A program made the position numbers and the translations under genes. From the IMG/VR virus record IMGVR_UViG_2585427795_000008: a DNA stretch of 8,006 bases; one strand, written 5' to 3'. Source of the DNA: a virus (lineage: Duplodnaviria; Heunggongvirae; Uroviricota; Caudoviricetes). Under the pieces are notes generated by a model. That model made no database searches, was not told the DNA's origin, and worked only from the letters and a program-made list of their open reading frames with translations. Positions 4,216 through 8,006 of this stretch are shown piece after piece (the stretch's first letter is position 1; each line of letters starts with the position of its first letter).

Positions 4216-4512
4216 TTATACCTCTGAATCAATATCAACCTGGTGGTGAGCAATGGTTTCAACCATGTACCGGATGTGTTCTGCCATGCGCTCCTGAAAC
4301 TCAACATCGTCATCAAACGCACGGGTAATGGCTTTTTTGCTGGCCCCGTGGCGTTGCAAATGATCGATGCATAGCGATTCAAACAGGTGCTGGGGCAGGC
4401 CTTTTTCCATGTCGTCTGCCAGTTCTGCCTCTTTCTCTTCACGGGCGATCTGCTGGTAGTGACGCGCCCAGCTCTGAGCCTCAAGACGATCCTGAATGTA
4501 ATAAGCGTTCAT
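4216..4512 (-). CDS. gam: Gam (GamS form), RecBCD inhibitor
   Basis: 98 aa protein [60 protein letters not shown]... matches the lambda GamS portion. The in-frame upstream extension hits a stop at 4567-4569 after only 18 codons, so the 138 aa long form is not encoded. Confidence 0.95.
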
Positions 4513-4587
4513 GGCTGAACTCCTGAAAATGGCTGTGAAAATATCGCCCGCGAAATGCCAGGCTGATTAGGAAAACAGGAAAGGGGA

Positions 4588-4998
4588 TTAGTGATTGAGG
4601 CCGTTACCGCGTCCGTCGAGAAAAACTTCCACGAGCAAATCACGGGTATAAGTGCGCTCGATGCCGCGATGCAGATAAAGCCGTCCGCGTAAATTAGCTG
4701 ATGCAGTCCAGGTACCATCTTTGTGTTTGACCAGCATTCCTGGCATGACCGCACCGCGATTAACGGTCTGCGTTCCGTAATGTTGATGAACCATAAAAAC
4801 TCCTGCCCGTAAGCTGGGCTGCTGAACATATAGAGACTTCTGCGCGTATTCAGGCGGTGGATGGCCGCCGGTTGTCATAACTAAGCCGCCTCGTTGAAGC
4901 GACTGAGGTATAAAGTGTTGTGTTGATTTCAGCTGGTCACACCGACGTTCACGCGTCCGTTTCACCCCTCGCACTCCCCGAAGCCTGCTGAAATTCAA
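4588..4998 (-). CDS. Hypothetical protein at the N position (first ORF leftward of PL); start uncertain
   Basis: 136 codon open frame on the operon strand between the predicted PL and gam. The 5'-most start is TTG (4996-4998); internal ATGs at residues 41 and 69. N-terminal stretch is Arg-rich ([15 protein letters not shown]), loosely like the arginine-rich motif of N antiterminators, but the rest shows no similarity I recognise. Confidence 0.35.
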
Positions 4999-5071
4999 AC
5001 TGCGGATCTAAGCGGTCATCGCCACGGTGAAACAGGTGGTTACCGTATCGTTGTGTCGTTGCGATGAATTT

Positions 5072-5100
5072 ATTTAAAACTATAGTTGTTTTATCGTCAA
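5072..5100 (-). promoter_or_regulatory. PL-like early-left promoter
   Basis: Minus strand reads TTGACG (plus 5095-5100), a 17-nt spacer, then TTAAAT (plus 5072-5077). The region is near-identical to the PR promoter/operator (PR: GTTGTTGACTAAAAACAACCATAGTTTTAATCT; PL minus strand: GTTGTTGACGATAAAACAACTATAGTTTTAAATA). Confidence 0.5.
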
Positions 5101-5128
5101 CAACAAAAGTTGTTTTGTCGGTTGTTTT
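5085..5128. promoter_or_regulatory. OL operator cluster (repressor-binding inverted repeats)
   Basis: GTTGTT-N8-AACAAC at 5085-5104, AACAAC-AAAA-GTTGTT at 5099-5114, and a further GTTGTTTT at 5121-5128. Same half-site as the OR palindrome. Confidence 0.5.
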
Positions 5129-5240
5129 AAATATAACTGGTTGTATTTAGGATGGATTTATTTTGTGACTTGCATCGCATAGCGATAACTGAAGTGAGGT
5201 GTGGTGGTTTTTTGGACGGTATGAGTTATGAGGGGGAGGA

Positions 5241-5266
5241 AAAGAAAACCCGGCGCGGTTGCCGGG
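5241..5266 (-). terminator. Intrinsic terminator downstream of the lipoprotein gene (end of the immunity transcript)
   Basis: CCCGGC-GCGGTT-GCCGGG hairpin at 5249-5266; on the minus strand it is followed by TTTTCTTTTCC. Lies 8 nt past the lipoprotein stop codon. Confidence 0.6.
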
Positions 5267-5274
5267 TATGATTA

Positions 5275-5655
5275 TCAGTCAGCCCAACCTGATTTCGAGT
5301 TTATTTGGGTTTCTGACATTGTGTATTTCTTAATCGTGTCATCGTTAAAAAGAATAGTAAGTTCTTTTTTCGTACCGTTCGTTCCATTATGGAATAATCC
5401 ATAGAATGGAATAAAAGTGGTGCCATTAACTTTTACTTTTGCAAAGGCGTACTTCCAGATCTCGTTTCCACTGTCAGTATATGAAACAGCATCAGGAGAA
5501 CCAAAGTAAGATTTAACCTCATTCTTGGTTGTTTTACCTTCCTGAAGTTTAGACTGGACACTAATTTCAGTTTCATTTTTGAGTTGCTGGTTGCCTGAAG
5601 AAGCACACCCAGCCAATACAGATGCCATCATGGCAGCGATTAGGATTTTTCTCAT
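5275..5655 (-). CDS. Prophage lipoprotein with BamE/SmpA-OmlA-like domain, at the rex position
   Basis: 126 aa ORF with ATG start. Signal peptide MRKILIAAMMASVLAGC has a lipobox (LAG|C). Mature domain motifs GKTTKNEVKSYFGSPDAVSYTDSGNEIWKYAF and ELTILFNDDTIKKY resemble the BamE pattern (GMTQQQVAYALGTP...GTNTWFYVF...TLTLTFNSSGV). Region 5270-5880 is markedly AT-rich compared with its flanks. Confidence 0.8.
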   Translation of the reverse strand: MRKILIAAMMASVLAGCASSGNQQLKNETEISVQSKLQEGKTTKNEVKSYFGSPDAVSYTDSGNEIWKYAFAKVKVNGTTFIPFYGLFHNGTNGTKKELTILFNDDTIKKYTMSETQINSKSGWAD

Positions 5656-5884
5656 TTTATGTTTCCATTCATTATAATCAGAAACATCTTAACATAATGA
5701 TTCGAAATAAAAACCGCTACGAGATAGGGGGACATTTTGCTGACAGTAGCAACAAATCTCAGCTAACAACGAGAATATTTACTGAAATATGCAAACAGAT
5801 TTGGCGTTCTTATAGAGAATTTAGTGCAATATCTAATCCGAGTGGTATAAACCTTAACCTTCGCTCCCTTAAGTCGTAGATAAA

Positions 5885-6574
5885 TTAACCATGCTTCCTG
5901 TACGTCTGCGGCATGCTTCCAATGACCTTACCGAATATGAACACCCGGTTCATCTCGTCTTTCTCGATCGGGTCCCACGGCGAGTAGCTCTTGTTATCAG
6001 AGATAACCAGCAGCTTATCCTTCATCATTTGAAGACGTTTTACATGGGCAGTGTCGTCGTACAGAAACGCATAGATGCCATCACCGTCGAAAGATTTAAC
6101 AGTGATATCAACGAACAGCAGGTCACCTGGTTCGATCGTCCCTGACATGCTGTCACCTCGCACGTTAATGATGCGGATATTTTCCGCCTTCCTGCCATCG
6201 AACATGTGACGAGCATCGTCAAACGAGTACTCAACCGAGCGTAGAACTTCTACAAACTCACGGTTGATTACACCTGGCCCGGCACTGACTTCTATATCAA
6301 GAACGTCAATTTTGAAGTATTTGGAATGGCTGACAGTTGATTGTATTGGTTGCACTGTACTGTCTGACATATTTCCAACGCCAGAAGATAACCATTCTGC
6401 GCGCACACCCAAAGCGTTCGCGATCTCCACGATTTTAGTTGTTTGGTTAGCTTTCCCTGTTTCGATTTTCTGAATAGCAGCTTGGCTAACCCCGACCAAA
6501 TCCCCAAGCGCCTTTTGTGTAAGGCCTCGCGCTAATCTGGCTTCTTTAAGTCTTTCTGAGAGTGTTGTTTTCAT
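5885..6574 (-). CDS. cI-type prophage repressor (XRE HTH plus S24 LexA-like autopeptidase domain)
   Basis: 229 aa ORF. N-terminal HTH (LTQKALGDLVGVSQAAIQKIETGK), Ala-Gly candidate cleavage site (VSAGPG), and C-terminal S24 motifs (RGDSMSGTIEPGDLLFVD with the Ser, and a VKRL Lys). Divergent from the cro-like gene across an operator region. Not lambda cI by sequence. Confidence 0.92.
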   Translation of the reverse strand: MKTTLSERLKEARLARGLTQKALGDLVGVSQAAIQKIETGKANQTTKIVEIANALGVRAEWLSSGVGNMSDSTVQPIQSTVSHSKYFKIDVLDIEVSAGPGVINREFVEVLRSVEYSFDDARHMFDGRKAENIRIINVRGDSMSGTIEPGDLLFVDITVKSFDGDGIYAFLYDDTAHVKRLQMMKDKLLVISDNKSYSPWDPIEKDEMNRVFIFGKVIGSMPQTYRKHG

Positions 6575-6580
6575 AGATCA

Positions 6581-6609
6581 AATGTACAACCAAGGTTTTA
6601 TTTCATCAA
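6581..6609 (-). promoter_or_regulatory. Candidate PRM-like maintenance promoter for the repressor
   Basis: Minus strand TTGATG (plus 6604-6609), 17-nt spacer, TACATT (plus 6581-6586), ending about 6 nt before the repressor ATG. This would give a near-leaderless transcript as for lambda PRM. Confidence 0.35.
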
Positions 6610-6615
6610 ACGAAA

Positions 6616-6640
6616 ATGGTTGTTGACTAAAAACAACCAT
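6616..6640. promoter_or_regulatory. OR operator (perfect 9-bp inverted repeat)
   Basis: ATGGTTGTT-GACTAAA-AACAACCAT, overlapping the PR -35. Same half-site as the OL copies. Confidence 0.6.
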
Positions 6641-6651
6641 AGTTTTAATCT
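6623..6651 (+). promoter_or_regulatory. PR-like early-right promoter
   Basis: TTGACT (6623-6628), 17-nt spacer, TAATCT (6646-6651). Followed by a GGAGG SD and the cro-like ATG at 6679. Confidence 0.6.
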
Positions 6652-6678
6652 TGATTCGGATTAACCACGGAGGTTGTT

Positions 6679-6909
6679 ATGAACCCAGCAATCAAAACAG
6701 CGATCAATATCGTTGGTTCACAAAAGAAACTAGGCGATGCCTGCGAAGTTTCACAGCAGGCCGTCTATAAGTGGCTTCACAACAAAGCAAAGGTATCCCC
6801 TGAACATGTCGGCAGCATTGTTACGGCTACTGGTGGAGTTGTGAAGGCATACCAGATTCGCCCGGATCTTCCGAAGTTGTTTCCACACACCGAAAAGAAC
6901 GCAGCTTAA
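6679..6909 (+). CDS. Cro-like HTH regulator (YdaS/Cro family)
   Basis: 76 aa ORF with ATG and a GGAGG SD, divergent from the repressor. HTH-like segment (KLGDACEVSQQAVYKWLHNK) typical of Cro/YdaS-type proteins. Confidence 0.85.
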   Translation: MNPAIKTAINIVGSQKKLGDACEVSQQAVYKWLHNKAKVSPEHVGSIVTATGGVVKAYQIRPDLPKLFPHTEKNAA

Positions 6910-6921
6910 ATTTCCATTTCA

Positions 6922-6934
6922 CGCTCTTTAACAA
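6922..6934 (+). promoter_or_regulatory. boxA-like element (nutR position)
   Basis: CGCTCTTTAACAA lies between the cro-like and YdaT-like genes. It matches the boxA consensus of lambda nut sites (CGCTCTTA) and rrn operons (TGCTCTTTAACAA). No clear boxB hairpin follows. Confidence 0.45.
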
Positions 6935-6978
6935 TAAGCAATCAACTTAACAGTCAATTCAAACTAAAGGAGTCAATT

Positions 6979-7518
6979 ATGCAACCACTTACATACCAAC
7001 AGACTAGCGGATTTATTCCGACTGCGGTGATAAATCGTTCTCAAACAAAACAAGCTCCAGGCCACGAAAAAATCCGTGATGCCGTCCGCGCCTGGTCGGC
7101 TGTAGATAATCAGGATGTCGTTGCCGCACTCATTGTGAATGAGTATCGGGAGCAGGGCGACGGCACCATCGATTTCCCTGATGATGTCAGCCGTGCACGC
7201 CAGAAGCTGTTCCGCTTCCTCGATAACAAATTCGATTCTGAAAAATACCGAAATAACGTGCGTGAACTGACCCCGGCAATTCTGGCGGTACTACCGCTGG
7301 AATATCGCGGTTACCTGGTTGAGCAGGATAGCTTCATGACTCGGTTGGCTGAAATGGAAAAGGAACTCAGTGAGGCAAAACAGGCTGTCATTCTCAACGC
7401 ACCACGCCACCAGAAACTGAAGGAAATGAGTGAAGGTATTGTGTCGATGTTTCGTGTGGACCCGGATCTGGCTGGTCCATTAATGGCGATGGTGACCACC
7501 ATGCTGGGGGCAATATGA
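6979..7518 (+). CDS. YdaT-like protein at the cII position
   Basis: 179 aa ORF with ATG and an AAGGAG SD. The segment LTPAILAVLPLEYRGYL resembles E. coli Rac YdaT (IPAILAILPRELRHRL) as I recall it; NEYREQGDGTIDFP resembles EEYLRQGGGELPLVP. Not lambda cII. Confidence 0.75.
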   Translation: MQPLTYQQTSGFIPTAVINRSQTKQAPGHEKIRDAVRAWSAVDNQDVVAALIVNEYREQGDGTIDFPDDVSRARQKLFRFLDNKFDSEKYRNNVRELTPAILAVLPLEYRGYLVEQDSFMTRLAEMEKELSEAKQAVILNAPRHQKLKEMSEGIVSMFRVDPDLAGPLMAMVTTMLGAI

Positions 7519-7544
7519 CAGGTTCAGAAATGGCGAAAGTCGGT

Positions 7545-7577
7545 CTGCGGGAACAGAACCGACTTTCAGGTGCAAAT
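7545..7577 (+). other. Strong hairpin (10-bp perfect inverted repeat) downstream of the YdaT-like gene
   Basis: GAAAGTCGGT (7545-7554), 13-nt loop, ACCGACTTTC (7568-7577). The stem extends to about 13 bp with one bulge. No T-run follows; the IS903-group end begins 11 nt later. Confidence 0.5.
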
Positions 7578-7588
7578 CGGCTTTGTTG

Positions 7589-8006
7589 AATAAATCAGAT
7601 TTCGGGTAAGTCTCCCCCGTAGCGGGTTGTGTTTTCAGGCAATACGCACGCTTTCAGGCATACCTGCTTTCGTCATTTTGTTCAGCGCTCGTACCAGGGC
7701 CATAGCCTCCGCAACCTGACCATCGTAGTCACGCAGCGTCAGTGAACCCCCGAACAGCTGTTTTACCCGGTACATCGCCGTTTCCGCTATCGAGCGACGG
7801 TTGTAATCTGTTGTCCATTTCCACCGCGCATTACTCCCGGTCATTCGCTGATTAGCCACTGCACGGTTACGGTCTGCATATTCACCGGGCCAGTAACCCG
7901 CACCTTTTCGGGGAGGGATAAGGGCGCTGATTTTCTTACGCCGCAGTTCATCGTGACAGAGCCGGGTGTCGTAAGCGCCGTCTGCCGATGCTGCCCTGAT
8001 TTTTCT
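7589..8006 (-). mobile_element. IS903-group (IS5 family) insertion sequence, partial; continues past the window end
   Basis: Terminal inverted repeat GGCTTTGTTGAATAAATC at 7589-7606 matches the IS903 end as I recall it. It is followed by the C-terminal part of a transposase on the minus strand. Confidence 0.8.
7635..8006 (-). CDS. IS903-group transposase, C-terminal fragment (N-terminus lies outside the window)
   Basis: Frame is open from the window edge: ...RKISAASADGAYDTRLCHDELRRKKISALIPPRKGAGYWPGEYADRNRAVANQRMTGSNARWKWTTDYNRRSIAETAMYRVKQLFGGSLTLRDYDGQVAEAMALVRALNKMTKAGMPESVRIA. This is the typical IS903-group C-terminus. The ORF track shows only the part from an internal Met (7635..7859). 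Confidence 0.88.
   Translation of the reverse strand, partial: RKIRAASADGAYDTRLCHDELRRKKISALIPPRKGAGYWPGEYADRNRAVANQRMTGSNARWKWTTDYNRRSIAETAMYRVKQLFGGSLTLRDYDGQVAEAMALVRALNKMTKAGMPESVRIA

What the first reader, a model, noticed from the sequence alone, without database searches (positions are those of the whole stretch)
6910..6978. boxA-like sequence after cro without a recognisable boxB, and no boxA in the PL leader
CGCTCTTTAACAA downstream of the cro-like gene is a near-consensus boxA at the nutR position, which implies processive antitermination of early-right transcription. I found no similar boxA (TTGTTAAAGAGCG on the plus strand) in the PL leader (4999-5070) and no canonical N gene. The antitermination mechanism, if any, is therefore unclear and may be asymmetric or host-factor based.
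Basis: partly seen in the sequence, partly recalled or inferred. Interest (0 to 1): 0.45.

Follow-up and report, generated by a model that had tools for sequence, protein, structure and literature searches.

The report
Orphan nutR boxA in N-less prophage
A perfect copy of boxA, the short RNA signal that helps phage lambda's N protein override transcription stops, sits after the cro gene of a very common E. coli prophage that has no N gene, no partner hairpin and no left-hand site, so it is most likely a leftover of module swapping that can at best still attract host Nus factors.

Summary
CGCTCTTTAACAA is at 6922-6934 (+), 12 nt after the cro stop and 45 nt before the next gene, a YdaT-type cII. 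About 0.01-0.02 such matches are expected per window. No boxB hairpin follows it. There is no boxA, boxB or N gene downstream of PL, and no HK639-type put RNA.

Comparison explains it. In 8 of 14 other species with a Cro 63-86% identical, and in phage PA28 (about 66%), a boxA at this position is followed by a GC-rich boxB. Five of these nine also show a nutL-type boxA plus hairpin on the PL side, and an N gene was seen in two. The window keeps only boxA.

The element belongs to the immunity cassette. Sister phages with the same PL leader and the same ydaT-O-P genes, but a different cI/cro, have a 30-nt spacer without boxA.

Best reading: an orphaned nutR boxA that rode along with cro. It is not required for early-right transcription. 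It still matches the NusB/NusE consensus, so N-independent Nus loading is plausible but untested. That could give Rho resistance or damp ydaT translation.

The module occurs in 1507 of 5426 complete E. coli genomes. Interest is modest.

The parts
6922..6934 (+). boxA, CGCTCTTTAACAA. It equals the E. coli rrn boxA TGCTCTTTAACAA except for the first base (rrn sequence from my own knowledge). Its core 6923-6933 matches GYTCTTTAANA.
   Evidence: Exact and unique in the window. GCTCTTT is invariant in the alignment with nutR regions of Cro-homologous phages.
6910..6978 (+). cro-ydaT spacer, 69 nt. It is unstructured, A/C-rich and G-poor. It contains boxA, the repeats AATCAA 6940-6945 and AGTCAA 6952-6957 and 6971-6976, and the SD AAGGAG at 6967-6972. 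It has no boxB and no terminator.
   Evidence: Folds; no + strand terminator-like site; GC skew -0.31 to -0.39 over 6860-7060. The spacer is identical in the common E. coli variant.
6946..6947 (+). Site of a 12-nt indel. A minority of related prophages carry TTAACAGACTGA here, which creates the hairpin GACUG-AUUAA-CAGUC.
   Evidence: (z = -2.0). There is no second copy on the PL side.
6679..6909 (+). cro-like gene (YdaS/P22-Cro family, 76 aa).
   Evidence: Pfam PF15943, E = 6.6e-17. Homologues in N-type, put-type and N-less phages.
6623..6651 (+). PR: TTGACT, 17-nt spacer, TAATCT, overlapping the operators. It would transcribe cro, boxA and ydaT.
   Evidence: Read from the sequence. Mirror-image similarity to PL: inverted repeats I2 and I3, the latter 95% complementary. 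The consensus scan did not list it at its thresholds.
6979..7518 (+). YdaT-type CII equivalent (179 aa). Its stop overlaps the start of the O gene.
   Evidence: Pfam PF06254, E = 4.3e-30; annotation.
5885..6574 (-). cI-like repressor (HTH plus S24 peptidase).
5072..5100 (-). PL: TTGACG, 17-nt spacer, TTAAAT. The transcript would start near 5065.
   Evidence: Read from the sequence; mirror of PR.
4795..5065 (-). PL leader, about 270 nt, with no boxA, boxB, N gene or put-like RNA. It is conserved in heteroimmune sister phages.
   Evidence: The PL-to-kil distance is 292-298 nt in 86 of the 87 related loci that show both anchors, out of 90 with enough flank.
4588..4794 (-). KilR-family gene, the first conserved gene of the PL operon, in the place where N would be expected.
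   Evidence: RefSeq annotation; only residues from about 66 to 136 of the longer ORF are conserved in other phages.

Best explanation
This is an orphaned nutR boxA: the boxA half of an N-utilisation site that stayed attached to the 3' side of cro when this cI-cro immunity cassette came to sit in a lambdoid backbone without N. The backbone has PL, a leader, then kil-gam-bet-exo on the left, and ydaT-O-P-ren and a Q gene on the right. The boxB hairpin and any tR1-like hairpin are gone. No nutL or N came with the cassette, because in relatives these lie beyond its left boundary. The element is not needed to transcribe the early-right operon. Because it is still a perfect NusB-NusE binding consensus on the PR transcript, it probably still loads the host Nus complex (NusB/E/A/G/SuhB) without N. 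The likely consequence is small. It could be some rrn/CRISPR-type protection from Rho over the C-rich spacer and further downstream. It could also be suhB-type damping of ydaT translation. What is shown: identity, position, homology to nutR boxA, absence of boxB, nutL, N and put, and dispensability in sister phages. What is inferred: the origin by cassette exchange and any Nus loading.
For: (1) Exact, unique consensus boxA 12 nt after the cro stop. (2) Cro homologues at 63-86% identity in 14 other species: 8 have a 110-150-nt region after cro with boxA 6-23 nt after the stop, followed by a GC-rich hairpin. Six of the 8 are then followed by a lambda-type cII-like ORF. Arsenophonus (L102) has the identical 13-mer followed by CUCCC-UGAAAUU-GGGAG. 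Phage PA28 (Cro about 66% identical) has CGCTCTTTAACA plus a boxB hairpin and an annotated N. (3) Five of these nine relatives (L100, L101, L102, L096, PA28) also have a boxA-like match on the PL side, three or four of them with an obvious hairpin. An N-like ORF was seen in L102 and an annotated N in PA28. These serve as positive controls for the scans that find nothing in the window. (4) The window spacer has no hairpin. (5) No N in any relative sampled: PL and the kil start are 292-298 nt apart in 86 of the 87 loci that show both, out of 90 same-immunity loci with enough flank. The full phage PhiR26_1, 100% identical to the window up to the IS, has no annotated N in the first 24 kb of its record, which covers int to portal. 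(6) Cassette boundaries: heteroimmune phages (4A7, Perceval and others) share the PL leader from about +5 and resume identity exactly at the ydaT ATG. Their cro-ydaT spacer is 30 nt with no boxA. Among the 80 best ydaT loci, 42 are boxA-plus and 38 boxA-minus. (7) No excess conservation of boxA. There are 3 variant sites in its 13 nt (C3T, G2T, A9G) against 2 in the 6 nt just upstream. (8) That boxA alone recruits Nus factors is established for suhB (PMC5725501), CRISPR arrays (PMC7665894) and rrn (review PMC12360218).
Against: The motif is a perfect consensus. It is intact in 78 of 80 and 117 of 120 related loci, two overlapping samples of the same collection, and in the commonest E. coli variant, where cro differs by about 2% but the spacer is identical. 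The module is in 1507 of 5426 complete E. coli genomes. This would also fit a selected function, although sequence divergence is too shallow to tell. The 69-nt spacer is unstructured with C well above G, which is rut-like. A boxA might therefore be needed specifically in this cassette, which would explain why 30-nt-spacer sister phages do without it. No donor phage with this cro plus a full nutR was found, so the loss of boxB is inferred and not observed.
Confidence: 0.65

Rival explanations
1. Selected, N-independent antitermination. boxA on the PR transcript nucleates an rrn/CRISPR-type Nus complex (NusB/E/A/G/SuhB). This makes PR-initiated RNAP resistant to Rho across the C-rich spacer and the untranslated or antisense stretches between ren and Q. 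The phage would use host factors only, and only on the right arm.
For: Perfect match to GYTCTTTAANA. boxA-only antitermination is established for rrn and CRISPR arrays. The spacer is unstructured and C-rich, G-poor. In PhiR26_1, PR must cross about 2 kb of an opposite-strand gene (PD-lambda-1) before reaching Q. The motif is retained in nearly all copies and in 28% of E. coli genomes.
Against: Sister phages with the same ydaT-O-P-ren lack any boxA. There is no excess conservation over flanking bases. Genes downstream are closely packed and would be shielded from Rho if translated (inference). Nus-only complexes act on Rho-dependent rather than intrinsic terminators (my own knowledge), and at least one intrinsic-terminator-like site lies between ren and Q (L001 11828-11842).
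Confidence: 0.17
2. suhB-like attenuator. Nus complex formation at boxA represses translation initiation of the YdaT-type CII equivalent and so exposes the transcript to Rho. This would act as a tR1-equivalent valve that ties ydaT-O-P expression to host Nus and growth status.
For: boxA lies 45 nt (end to ATG) upstream of ydaT and 32 nt from its SD. Baniulyte et al. found repression persisted with up to 100 nt inserted between boxA and SD and required the whole Nus complex. The spacer is rut-like. boxA GCUCUUU can pair weakly with the SD AAGGAGU.
Against: Measured the way their table appears to measure it (from the first base of boxA), the distance is 56 nt. That is outside their 50-bp screen, and no such E. 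coli entry appeared in the part of their table that I read. Sister phages lack the element. The pairing with the SD is not better than shuffles (z = -0.76).
Confidence: 0.1
3. A true but non-canonical nut site. An unrecognised N-like protein acts on a cryptic boxB. Candidates are the arginine-rich ORF that starts at GTG 4965 ([12 protein letters not shown]...) and the GACUG-AUUAA-CAGUC hairpin seen in the 12-nt-longer variant.
For: KRTRERR aligns with the arginine-rich motifs of lambda N (sequence from my memory), an Arsenophonus prophage N and PA28 N. The start codon is GTG or ATG in all 37 leader haplotypes. The long-variant hairpin folds with z = -2.0.
Against: The ORF is cut by TAG after 20 codons in about 30 of 78 related loci and by 1-2-nt indels in others. 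Synonymous to non-synonymous changes are about 4 to 6, which is no coding signal. Nothing beyond the motif resembles N. The isolated phages in the collection carry the short spacer without the hairpin. There is no second copy of the hairpin and no boxA in the PL leader. Two of the four long-variant spacer haplotypes carry boxA point changes, and one of these also has a stem change.
Confidence: 0.04
4. A DNA-level element or chance. The A/T-rich spacer would be a YdaT operator or PRE-like promoter region and only resemble boxA by accident.
For: In CP-933P the YdaT operators (TTGATT-N6-AATCAA) lie between ydaS and ydaT (PMC9986795). The window spacer has AATCAA and AGTCAA repeats, and a 3-mismatch match to that operator overlaps the 3' half of boxA at 6928-6945.
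Against: The CGCTCTT half is not explained by this. The chance expectation is 0.01-0.02 per window. The motif is positionally homologous to nutR boxA in relatives. No promoter-like site on the minus strand of the spacer. 3-mismatch operator matches are common: 16 in the window, although enriched over the 6.75 expected.
Confidence: 0.04

Closest known systems
nutR of N-dependent lambdoid phages (phage 21/PA28-type and P22-type, boxA CGCTCTTTAACA plus boxB; lambda nutR)
   Same: Same position, just 3' of a homologous cro and upstream of the cII-position gene. Same boxA sequence: identical 13-mer in an Arsenophonus prophage and 12 of 13 in PA28.
   Different: No boxB hairpin, no N protein, no nutL, and no tR1-like hairpin or terminator in the spacer.
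rrn leader/spacer boxA (TGCTCTTTAACAA) and the rrn antitermination complex
   Same: 12 of 13 bases identical (rrn sequence from my own knowledge). A boxA that would act without any phage protein.
   Different: It lies within a translated mRNA operon, not an untranslated rRNA. No boxC-like G/U-rich element follows. Function is untested.
suhB 5'-UTR boxA (Baniulyte et al. 2017, PMC5725501)
   Same: Matches their consensus GYTCTTTAANA. Lies upstream of an SD in a pyrimidine-rich, rut-like stretch.
   Different: Further from the start codon: 45 nt end to ATG (56 nt from the first base of boxA), against 29 in their table. It lies between two ORFs of an operon rather than in a 5' UTR. The downstream gene is a phage regulator, not a Nus factor.
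boxA upstream of CRISPR arrays (Stringer et al. 2020, PMC7665894)
   Same: A boxA-only element outside rrn that protects long transcripts from Rho.
   Different: There the downstream RNA is untranslated and conservation across genera supports function. Here sister phages lack it.
HK022/HK639 put RNAs (N-independent, RNA-only antitermination in N-less lambdoids)
   Same: The phage context: an N-less lambdoid. HK639 also has a Cro 63% identical and a YdaT-type cII.
   Different: No sequence similarity to HK639 putL in the window, although the same search finds the PL region of Salmonella phage UPF_BP1. The PL leader is not unusually structured (z = +0.30).

Membership tests
nut site (N-utilisation site) | boxA matching CGCTCTT(T)A | tested here: met
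   Exact CGCTCTTTAACAA at 6922-6934.
nut site (N-utilisation site) | boxB stem-loop a few to about 20 nt 3' of boxA | tested here: not met
   No hairpin in 6910-6990. The same folding finds boxB in L102, PA28 and L097. Only a minority 12-nt-longer variant has a weak 5-bp hairpin.
nut site (N-utilisation site) | Cognate N protein with an arginine-rich motif encoded downstream of PL | tested here: not met
   kil is the first conserved gene. The arginine-rich ORF at 4965 is interrupted in many relatives. The PL-kil distance is fixed in 86 of the 87 loci that show both anchors.
nut site (N-utilisation site) | Matching nutL in the PL leader | tested here: not met
   No minus-strand boxA at up to 3 mismatches. 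The same kind of scan finds PL-side boxA matches in L100, L101, L102, L096 and PA28, most with a hairpin.
nut site (N-utilisation site) | Position between cro and the cII-position gene on the PR transcript | tested here: met
   12 nt after the cro stop. Positional homologue of boxA in 8 species-level relatives and PA28.
boxA-only Nus-factor target (rrn, suhB, CRISPR type) | Match to the gamma-proteobacterial consensus GYTCTTTAANA on the transcribed strand | tested here: met
   GCTCTTTAACA at 6923-6933 (+), downstream of PR. Consensus from PMC5725501.
boxA-only Nus-factor target (rrn, suhB, CRISPR type) | Conserved presence across relatives that share the downstream genes | tested here: not met
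   38 of the 80 closest ydaT loci (4A7-type immunity) have no boxA.
boxA-only Nus-factor target (rrn, suhB, CRISPR type) | NusB/NusE/SuhB association with the elongating complex (ChIP) and a boxA-dependent change in Rho termination or translation | not testable with these tools
   Needs reporter fusions and ChIP.
put antiterminator RNA (HK022/HK639) | Two-stem-loop RNA of about 70-125 nt downstream of PL and PR, with sequence similarity to known put sites | tested here: not met
   blastn with HK639 putL and its 'M3-like RNA' gives only chance-level 9-11-nt matches in the window, while putL detects UPF_BP1. Rfam did not hit the annotated HK639 putL, so it appears to hold no put family, and its silence on the window is uninformative.

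The most novel reading that the evidence does not exclude
A widespread family of E. coli lambdoid phages, present as prophage in about 28% of complete genomes, has dispensed with N and boxB. It retains a consensus boxA as a stand-alone, host-only signal that loads the rrn-type Nus complex onto PR transcripts. This would either protect early-right transcription from Rho or tune the YdaT (CII-equivalent) level to host Nus and growth status. It would be, to my knowledge, the first phage early operon regulated by boxA alone.
Probability: 0.25. Interest if true: 0.6.

Novelty: new variant of a known kind. Interest (0 to 1): 0.3.

Why it matters
If it is only a relic, it is a clean example of how modular exchange at cassette boundaries splits a two-part regulatory site. 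It is also a warning that a consensus boxA after cro does not identify an N-dependent phage. If it is active, it would extend boxA-only Nus regulation, known for rRNA, suhB and CRISPR arrays, to a phage lysis-lysogeny operon carried by more than a quarter of sequenced E. coli. It would also give a third route beside N/nut and put RNA by which lambdoid phages deal with Rho. The test is cheap: point mutants and nus hosts, using an isolated phage that is identical to the window.

Tried and rejected
1. An Rfam scan of the window at E up to 10 gave only chance hits. Rfam did not recognise the annotated HK639 putL, so this says nothing about put RNAs.

2. put RNA: blastn with HK639 putL and its M3-like RNA found nothing in the window. 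The PL leader fold has z = +0.30.

3. A hidden N. The long 'Kil' ORF (126-140 aa in some annotations) begins with KRTRERR. I rejected it as a protein because TAG or frameshifts interrupt it in many relatives and only the C-terminal 68 aa are conserved. Only the arginine motif aligns with N proteins.

4. A cryptic boxB. The hairpin of the 12-nt-longer variant is absent from the isolated phages, has no PL-side partner, and varies in its stem and loop.

5. Inverted or direct repeats linking the PL and PR leaders beyond the operators: none found.

6. A population test for constraint on boxA. There are 3 variant sites in 13 nt against 2 in the 6 nt upstream, and the spacer is identical in the common variant. 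Divergence is too shallow to decide.

7. YdaT operator or PRE promoter in the spacer: suggestive repeats only.

8. Terminator scans between PR and Q of PhiR26_1 found one plausible intrinsic terminator near the isrK/C4 locus. This does not settle whether antitermination is needed.

9. I did not use the large protein-homology or structure tools. No protein question remained that they would settle.

Full report
**What the window is.** The 8-kb window is the early region of an E. coli lambdoid prophage.
- From left to right it holds int, xis and accessory genes, then exo, bet and gam.
- Next come a KilR-family gene (4588-4794, minus strand) and PL (about 5100-5072, minus strand).
- A lipoprotein cargo gene follows (5275-5655, minus strand), then a cI-like S24 repressor (5885-6574, minus strand) and PR (6623-6651).
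- On the right are a YdaS/P22-Cro-family cro (6679-6909) and a YdaT-type CII equivalent (6979-7518), followed by the first codons of the O gene.
- Up to position 7579 the queried stretch (4500-7600) is 100% identical to Escherichia phage PhiR26_1.
- From 7580 an IS903B element interrupts O, so this particular copy is probably defective for replication.
- Related isolates are classified in the genus Bievrevirus.

**Checking the observation.**
- CGCTCTTTAACAA is present once, at 6922-6934 on the + strand, 12 nt after the cro stop and 45 nt before the ydaT ATG.
- It is unique at up to 1 mismatch: expected 0.01, with 3 of 200 shuffles matching.
- It is the only match to the functional consensus GYTCTTTAANA of Baniulyte et al.: expected 0.02.
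- At 3 mismatches the count is at chance and no match lies on the minus strand, so the PL transcript has no boxA.
- The spacer does not fold: -3.6 kcal/mol, z = -0.76, and -5.0 kcal/mol for 6900-6990.
- No terminator-like site lies on the + strand there.

**What it is.** I collected Cro homologues.
- In phage PA28 (Cro about 66% identical, with an annotated N), the post-cro region reads CGCTCTTTAACA, 11 nt, then a boxB hairpin.
- In one genome per species, 14 loci encode a Cro 63-86% identical to the window's.
- Eight of these have a 110-150-nt region after cro with boxA 6-23 nt after the stop, followed by a GC-rich hairpin. In six of the eight a lambda-type cII-like ORF follows.
- An Arsenophonus prophage has the identical 13-mer followed by CUCCC-UGAAAUU-GGGAG.
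- GCTCTTT is invariant in the alignment of these regions with the window.
- Several of these relatives also carry a boxA-like match, usually with a hairpin, on the PL side (L100, L101, L102, L096 and PA28). An N-like ORF with an arginine-rich motif was seen in L102.
- The other six loci, and phages HK639, 4A7, Perceval and a Klebsiella phage, have 16-40-nt spacers with no boxA.
- The window's boxA is thus the positional and sequence homologue of a genuine nutR boxA. Its usual companions (boxB, and the nutL and N seen in several relatives) are missing.

**Is N really absent?**
- Only the C-terminal 68 residues of the ORF after PL are conserved in other phages, as the KilR family. RefSeq annotates just that part.
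- In the window the ORF extends upstream to a GTG at 4965 and would begin [12 protein letters not shown]. This aligns with the arginine-rich motifs of N proteins (the lambda N sequence was supplied from my memory).
- In an alignment of 78 related loci (37 haplotypes), this extension is cut by a TAG after 20 codons in about 30 loci and by 1-2-nt indels in three. Its substitutions show no coding bias.
- It is not an N protein. It could be a vestige of one, or a short upstream ORF.
- Of 90 same-immunity loci with enough flank, 87 show both PL and the kil start. These lie 292-298 nt apart in 86 of them, so none has room for an N gene.
- PhiR26_1 has no annotated N in the first 24 kb of its record (int to portal), though it has a Q gene.
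- The HK639 putL sequence finds the PL region of a Salmonella phage but nothing in the window.
- Rfam did not hit the annotated HK639 putL, so it appears to hold no put family.

**Why only on the right.**
- Heteroimmune sister phages (4A7, 4C10, Perceval, 1W, 3W, D2, PhiR30_1 and others) share the PL leader from about position +5 of the transcript.
- They resume identity exactly at the ydaT ATG.
- Between these points they carry a different cI/cro and a 30-nt cro-ydaT spacer without boxA.
- The exchangeable immunity cassette therefore includes the stretch just 3' of cro, where boxA sits. It excludes everything downstream of PL, where relatives have nutL and, where seen, N.
- A cassette taken from an N-dependent phage would bring boxA with it and leave nutL and N behind.
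- boxB was lost at the junction or by later deletion.
- A 12-nt indel flanked by TTAACAG repeats still segregates in the spacer. The longer form makes a weak hairpin, GACUG-AUUAA-CAGUC (z = -2.0).
- That hairpin has no partner on the PL side, varies in its stem and loop, and is absent from the isolated phages.

**Is it needed?**
- Among the 80 loci closest in YdaT (97-100% aa), 42 have the window-type cro with boxA and 38 have the 4A7-type cro without it.
- Both types include isolated phages. The PhiR series is used as an infection panel (bioRxiv 10.1101/2025.11.03.685801).
- The same right operon therefore works without boxA.
- Within the boxA-plus group the motif is exact in 78 of 80 and 117 of 120 loci (the two samples overlap).
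- The variants are CGTTCTTTAACAA (which still fits the consensus), CTCTCTTTAACAA and CGCTCTTTGACAA.
- The six bases just upstream vary as often, so there is no sign of special constraint.
- Divergence is too shallow for a real test. The spacer is identical in the commonest E. coli variant, whose cro region differs by about 2%.

**How it most likely works now.**
- A consensus boxA in a nascent E. coli transcript binds NusB-NusE and nucleates a complex with NusA, NusG and SuhB without any phage protein.
- This prevents Rho termination in rrn operons and CRISPR arrays (PMC7665894; review PMC12360218).
- It represses translation of suhB, which promotes Rho termination there, even with up to 100 nt between boxA and the SD (PMC5725501).
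- The window spacer is unstructured with C well above G, GC skew about -0.35, which is rut-like. Either outcome is mechanistically possible here.
- The window's boxA is 45 nt (end to ATG) from ydaT, or 56 nt from its first base. By the apparent convention of their table this falls just outside their 50-bp screen, and I saw no such E. coli entry in the part I read.
- My estimates: 0.65 that the element is an orphaned relic with at most minor Nus-dependent effects, 0.17 that it is a selected N-independent antiterminator, and 0.10 that it is a suhB-like attenuator of ydaT. Small weights go to a cryptic nut/N system and to a DNA-level or chance explanation.

**Comparison with known systems and novelty.**
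- The element fails membership of the nut family on three defining features that I tested: boxB, N and nutL.
- It matches in sequence the boxA-only class of Nus targets. It fails the comparative criterion of conservation among relatives that share the downstream genes. The functional criteria cannot be tested here.
- I found no report of a phage early operon with a stand-alone boxA in the papers I searched.
- The module is very common: 1507 of 5426 complete E. coli genomes carry cro plus this spacer.
- I rate it a new variant of a known kind with modest interest (0.3). The most novel surviving reading is host-only, boxA-driven control of a phage early operon. It has perhaps a 25% chance of being true and would deserve about 0.6.

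Noticed in passing
window 7580-8006: An IS903B (IS5-family) element, 99.8% identical to plasmid copies, is inserted about 22 codons into the replication gene O, which starts at 7515 and overlaps the ydaT stop. This prophage copy is probably replication-defective, while phage PhiR26_1 is identical up to the insertion point.
   Followed up: yes
window 4905-4965 (minus strand): Arginine-rich reading frame starting at GTG 4965 ([21 protein letters not shown]) in the PL leader, preceded by GGGGAG. The start codon is GTG or ATG in all 37 haplotypes. The frame stops after 20 codons in many relatives and runs into kil in the window. It may be a vestige of the 5' end of an N gene or a leader peptide.
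   Followed up: partly
window 4853-4912 (minus strand): Conserved pair of hairpins upstream of kil: GUCGCUUC-AAC-GAGGCGGC and GGCGG-CCAUCCA-CCGCC. Phage HK225 shares them, and there they lie just after an intrinsic terminator and far from PL. Function unknown.
   Followed up: partly
window 5020-5066 (minus strand): The 5' end of the PL transcript can form a 9-bp stem (CAUCGCAAC...GUUGCGAUG) that is perfect in most relatives and has an A-G mismatch in the window. It may be a stabilising 5' hairpin.
   Followed up: no
window 5160-5880: The slot between PL and cI holds a BamE-like/SEN1984-family lipoprotein gene (5275-5655, minus strand) with its own terminator (5267-5248). In related prophages the slot varies by roughly 1.6 kb in length while cI and PL stay fixed, so it is a cargo (moron) hotspot.
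   Followed up: partly
window 6690-6707 and 6940-6976: Repeated (A/G)(A/G)TCAA motifs spaced 12 nt apart occur just after the cro start and again in the cro-ydaT spacer (22-nt direct repeat, 73% identical). AATCAA is the half-site of the CP-933P YdaT operator, so these may be YdaT or Cro binding sites.
   Followed up: partly
L003 4463-4479; also L088, L090, L092-L094 just after cro: In the boxA-less relatives the last codons and stop codon of cro form a conserved GC-rich hairpin, for example GCCGC-CUAAUCU-GCGGC, with the TAA stop in the loop. It is seen with several different cro genes. Meaning unknown.
   Followed up: no
L001 11776-11958 (PhiR26_1, outside the window): An isrK-like sRNA (58.7 bits) and a C4 antisense RNA (74.8 bits) lie upstream of a Rha-family gene between ren and Q, next to an intrinsic-terminator-like site. 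This is a P1/Gifsy-type antirepressor control module sitting in the PR-to-Q path.
   Followed up: no
L005 2805-2815 (HK225 PL leader): TGCTTTTTAACAA lies about 70 nt downstream of the annotated PL of the phi80-immunity phage HK225. It is one base off the rrn boxA, at the C whose mutation (C4T, as part of the C4T/T6C double mutant) Baniulyte et al. used to inactivate boxA. No obvious boxB follows.
   Followed up: no
L089 2729-2800 (Salmonella phage UPF_BP1, after cro): A GC-rich structured stretch follows a Cro 68% identical to the window's, and the phage's PL region matches HK639 putL (26 nt, 96%). This suggests a put-type P22-like phage within the same Cro family.
   Followed up: no
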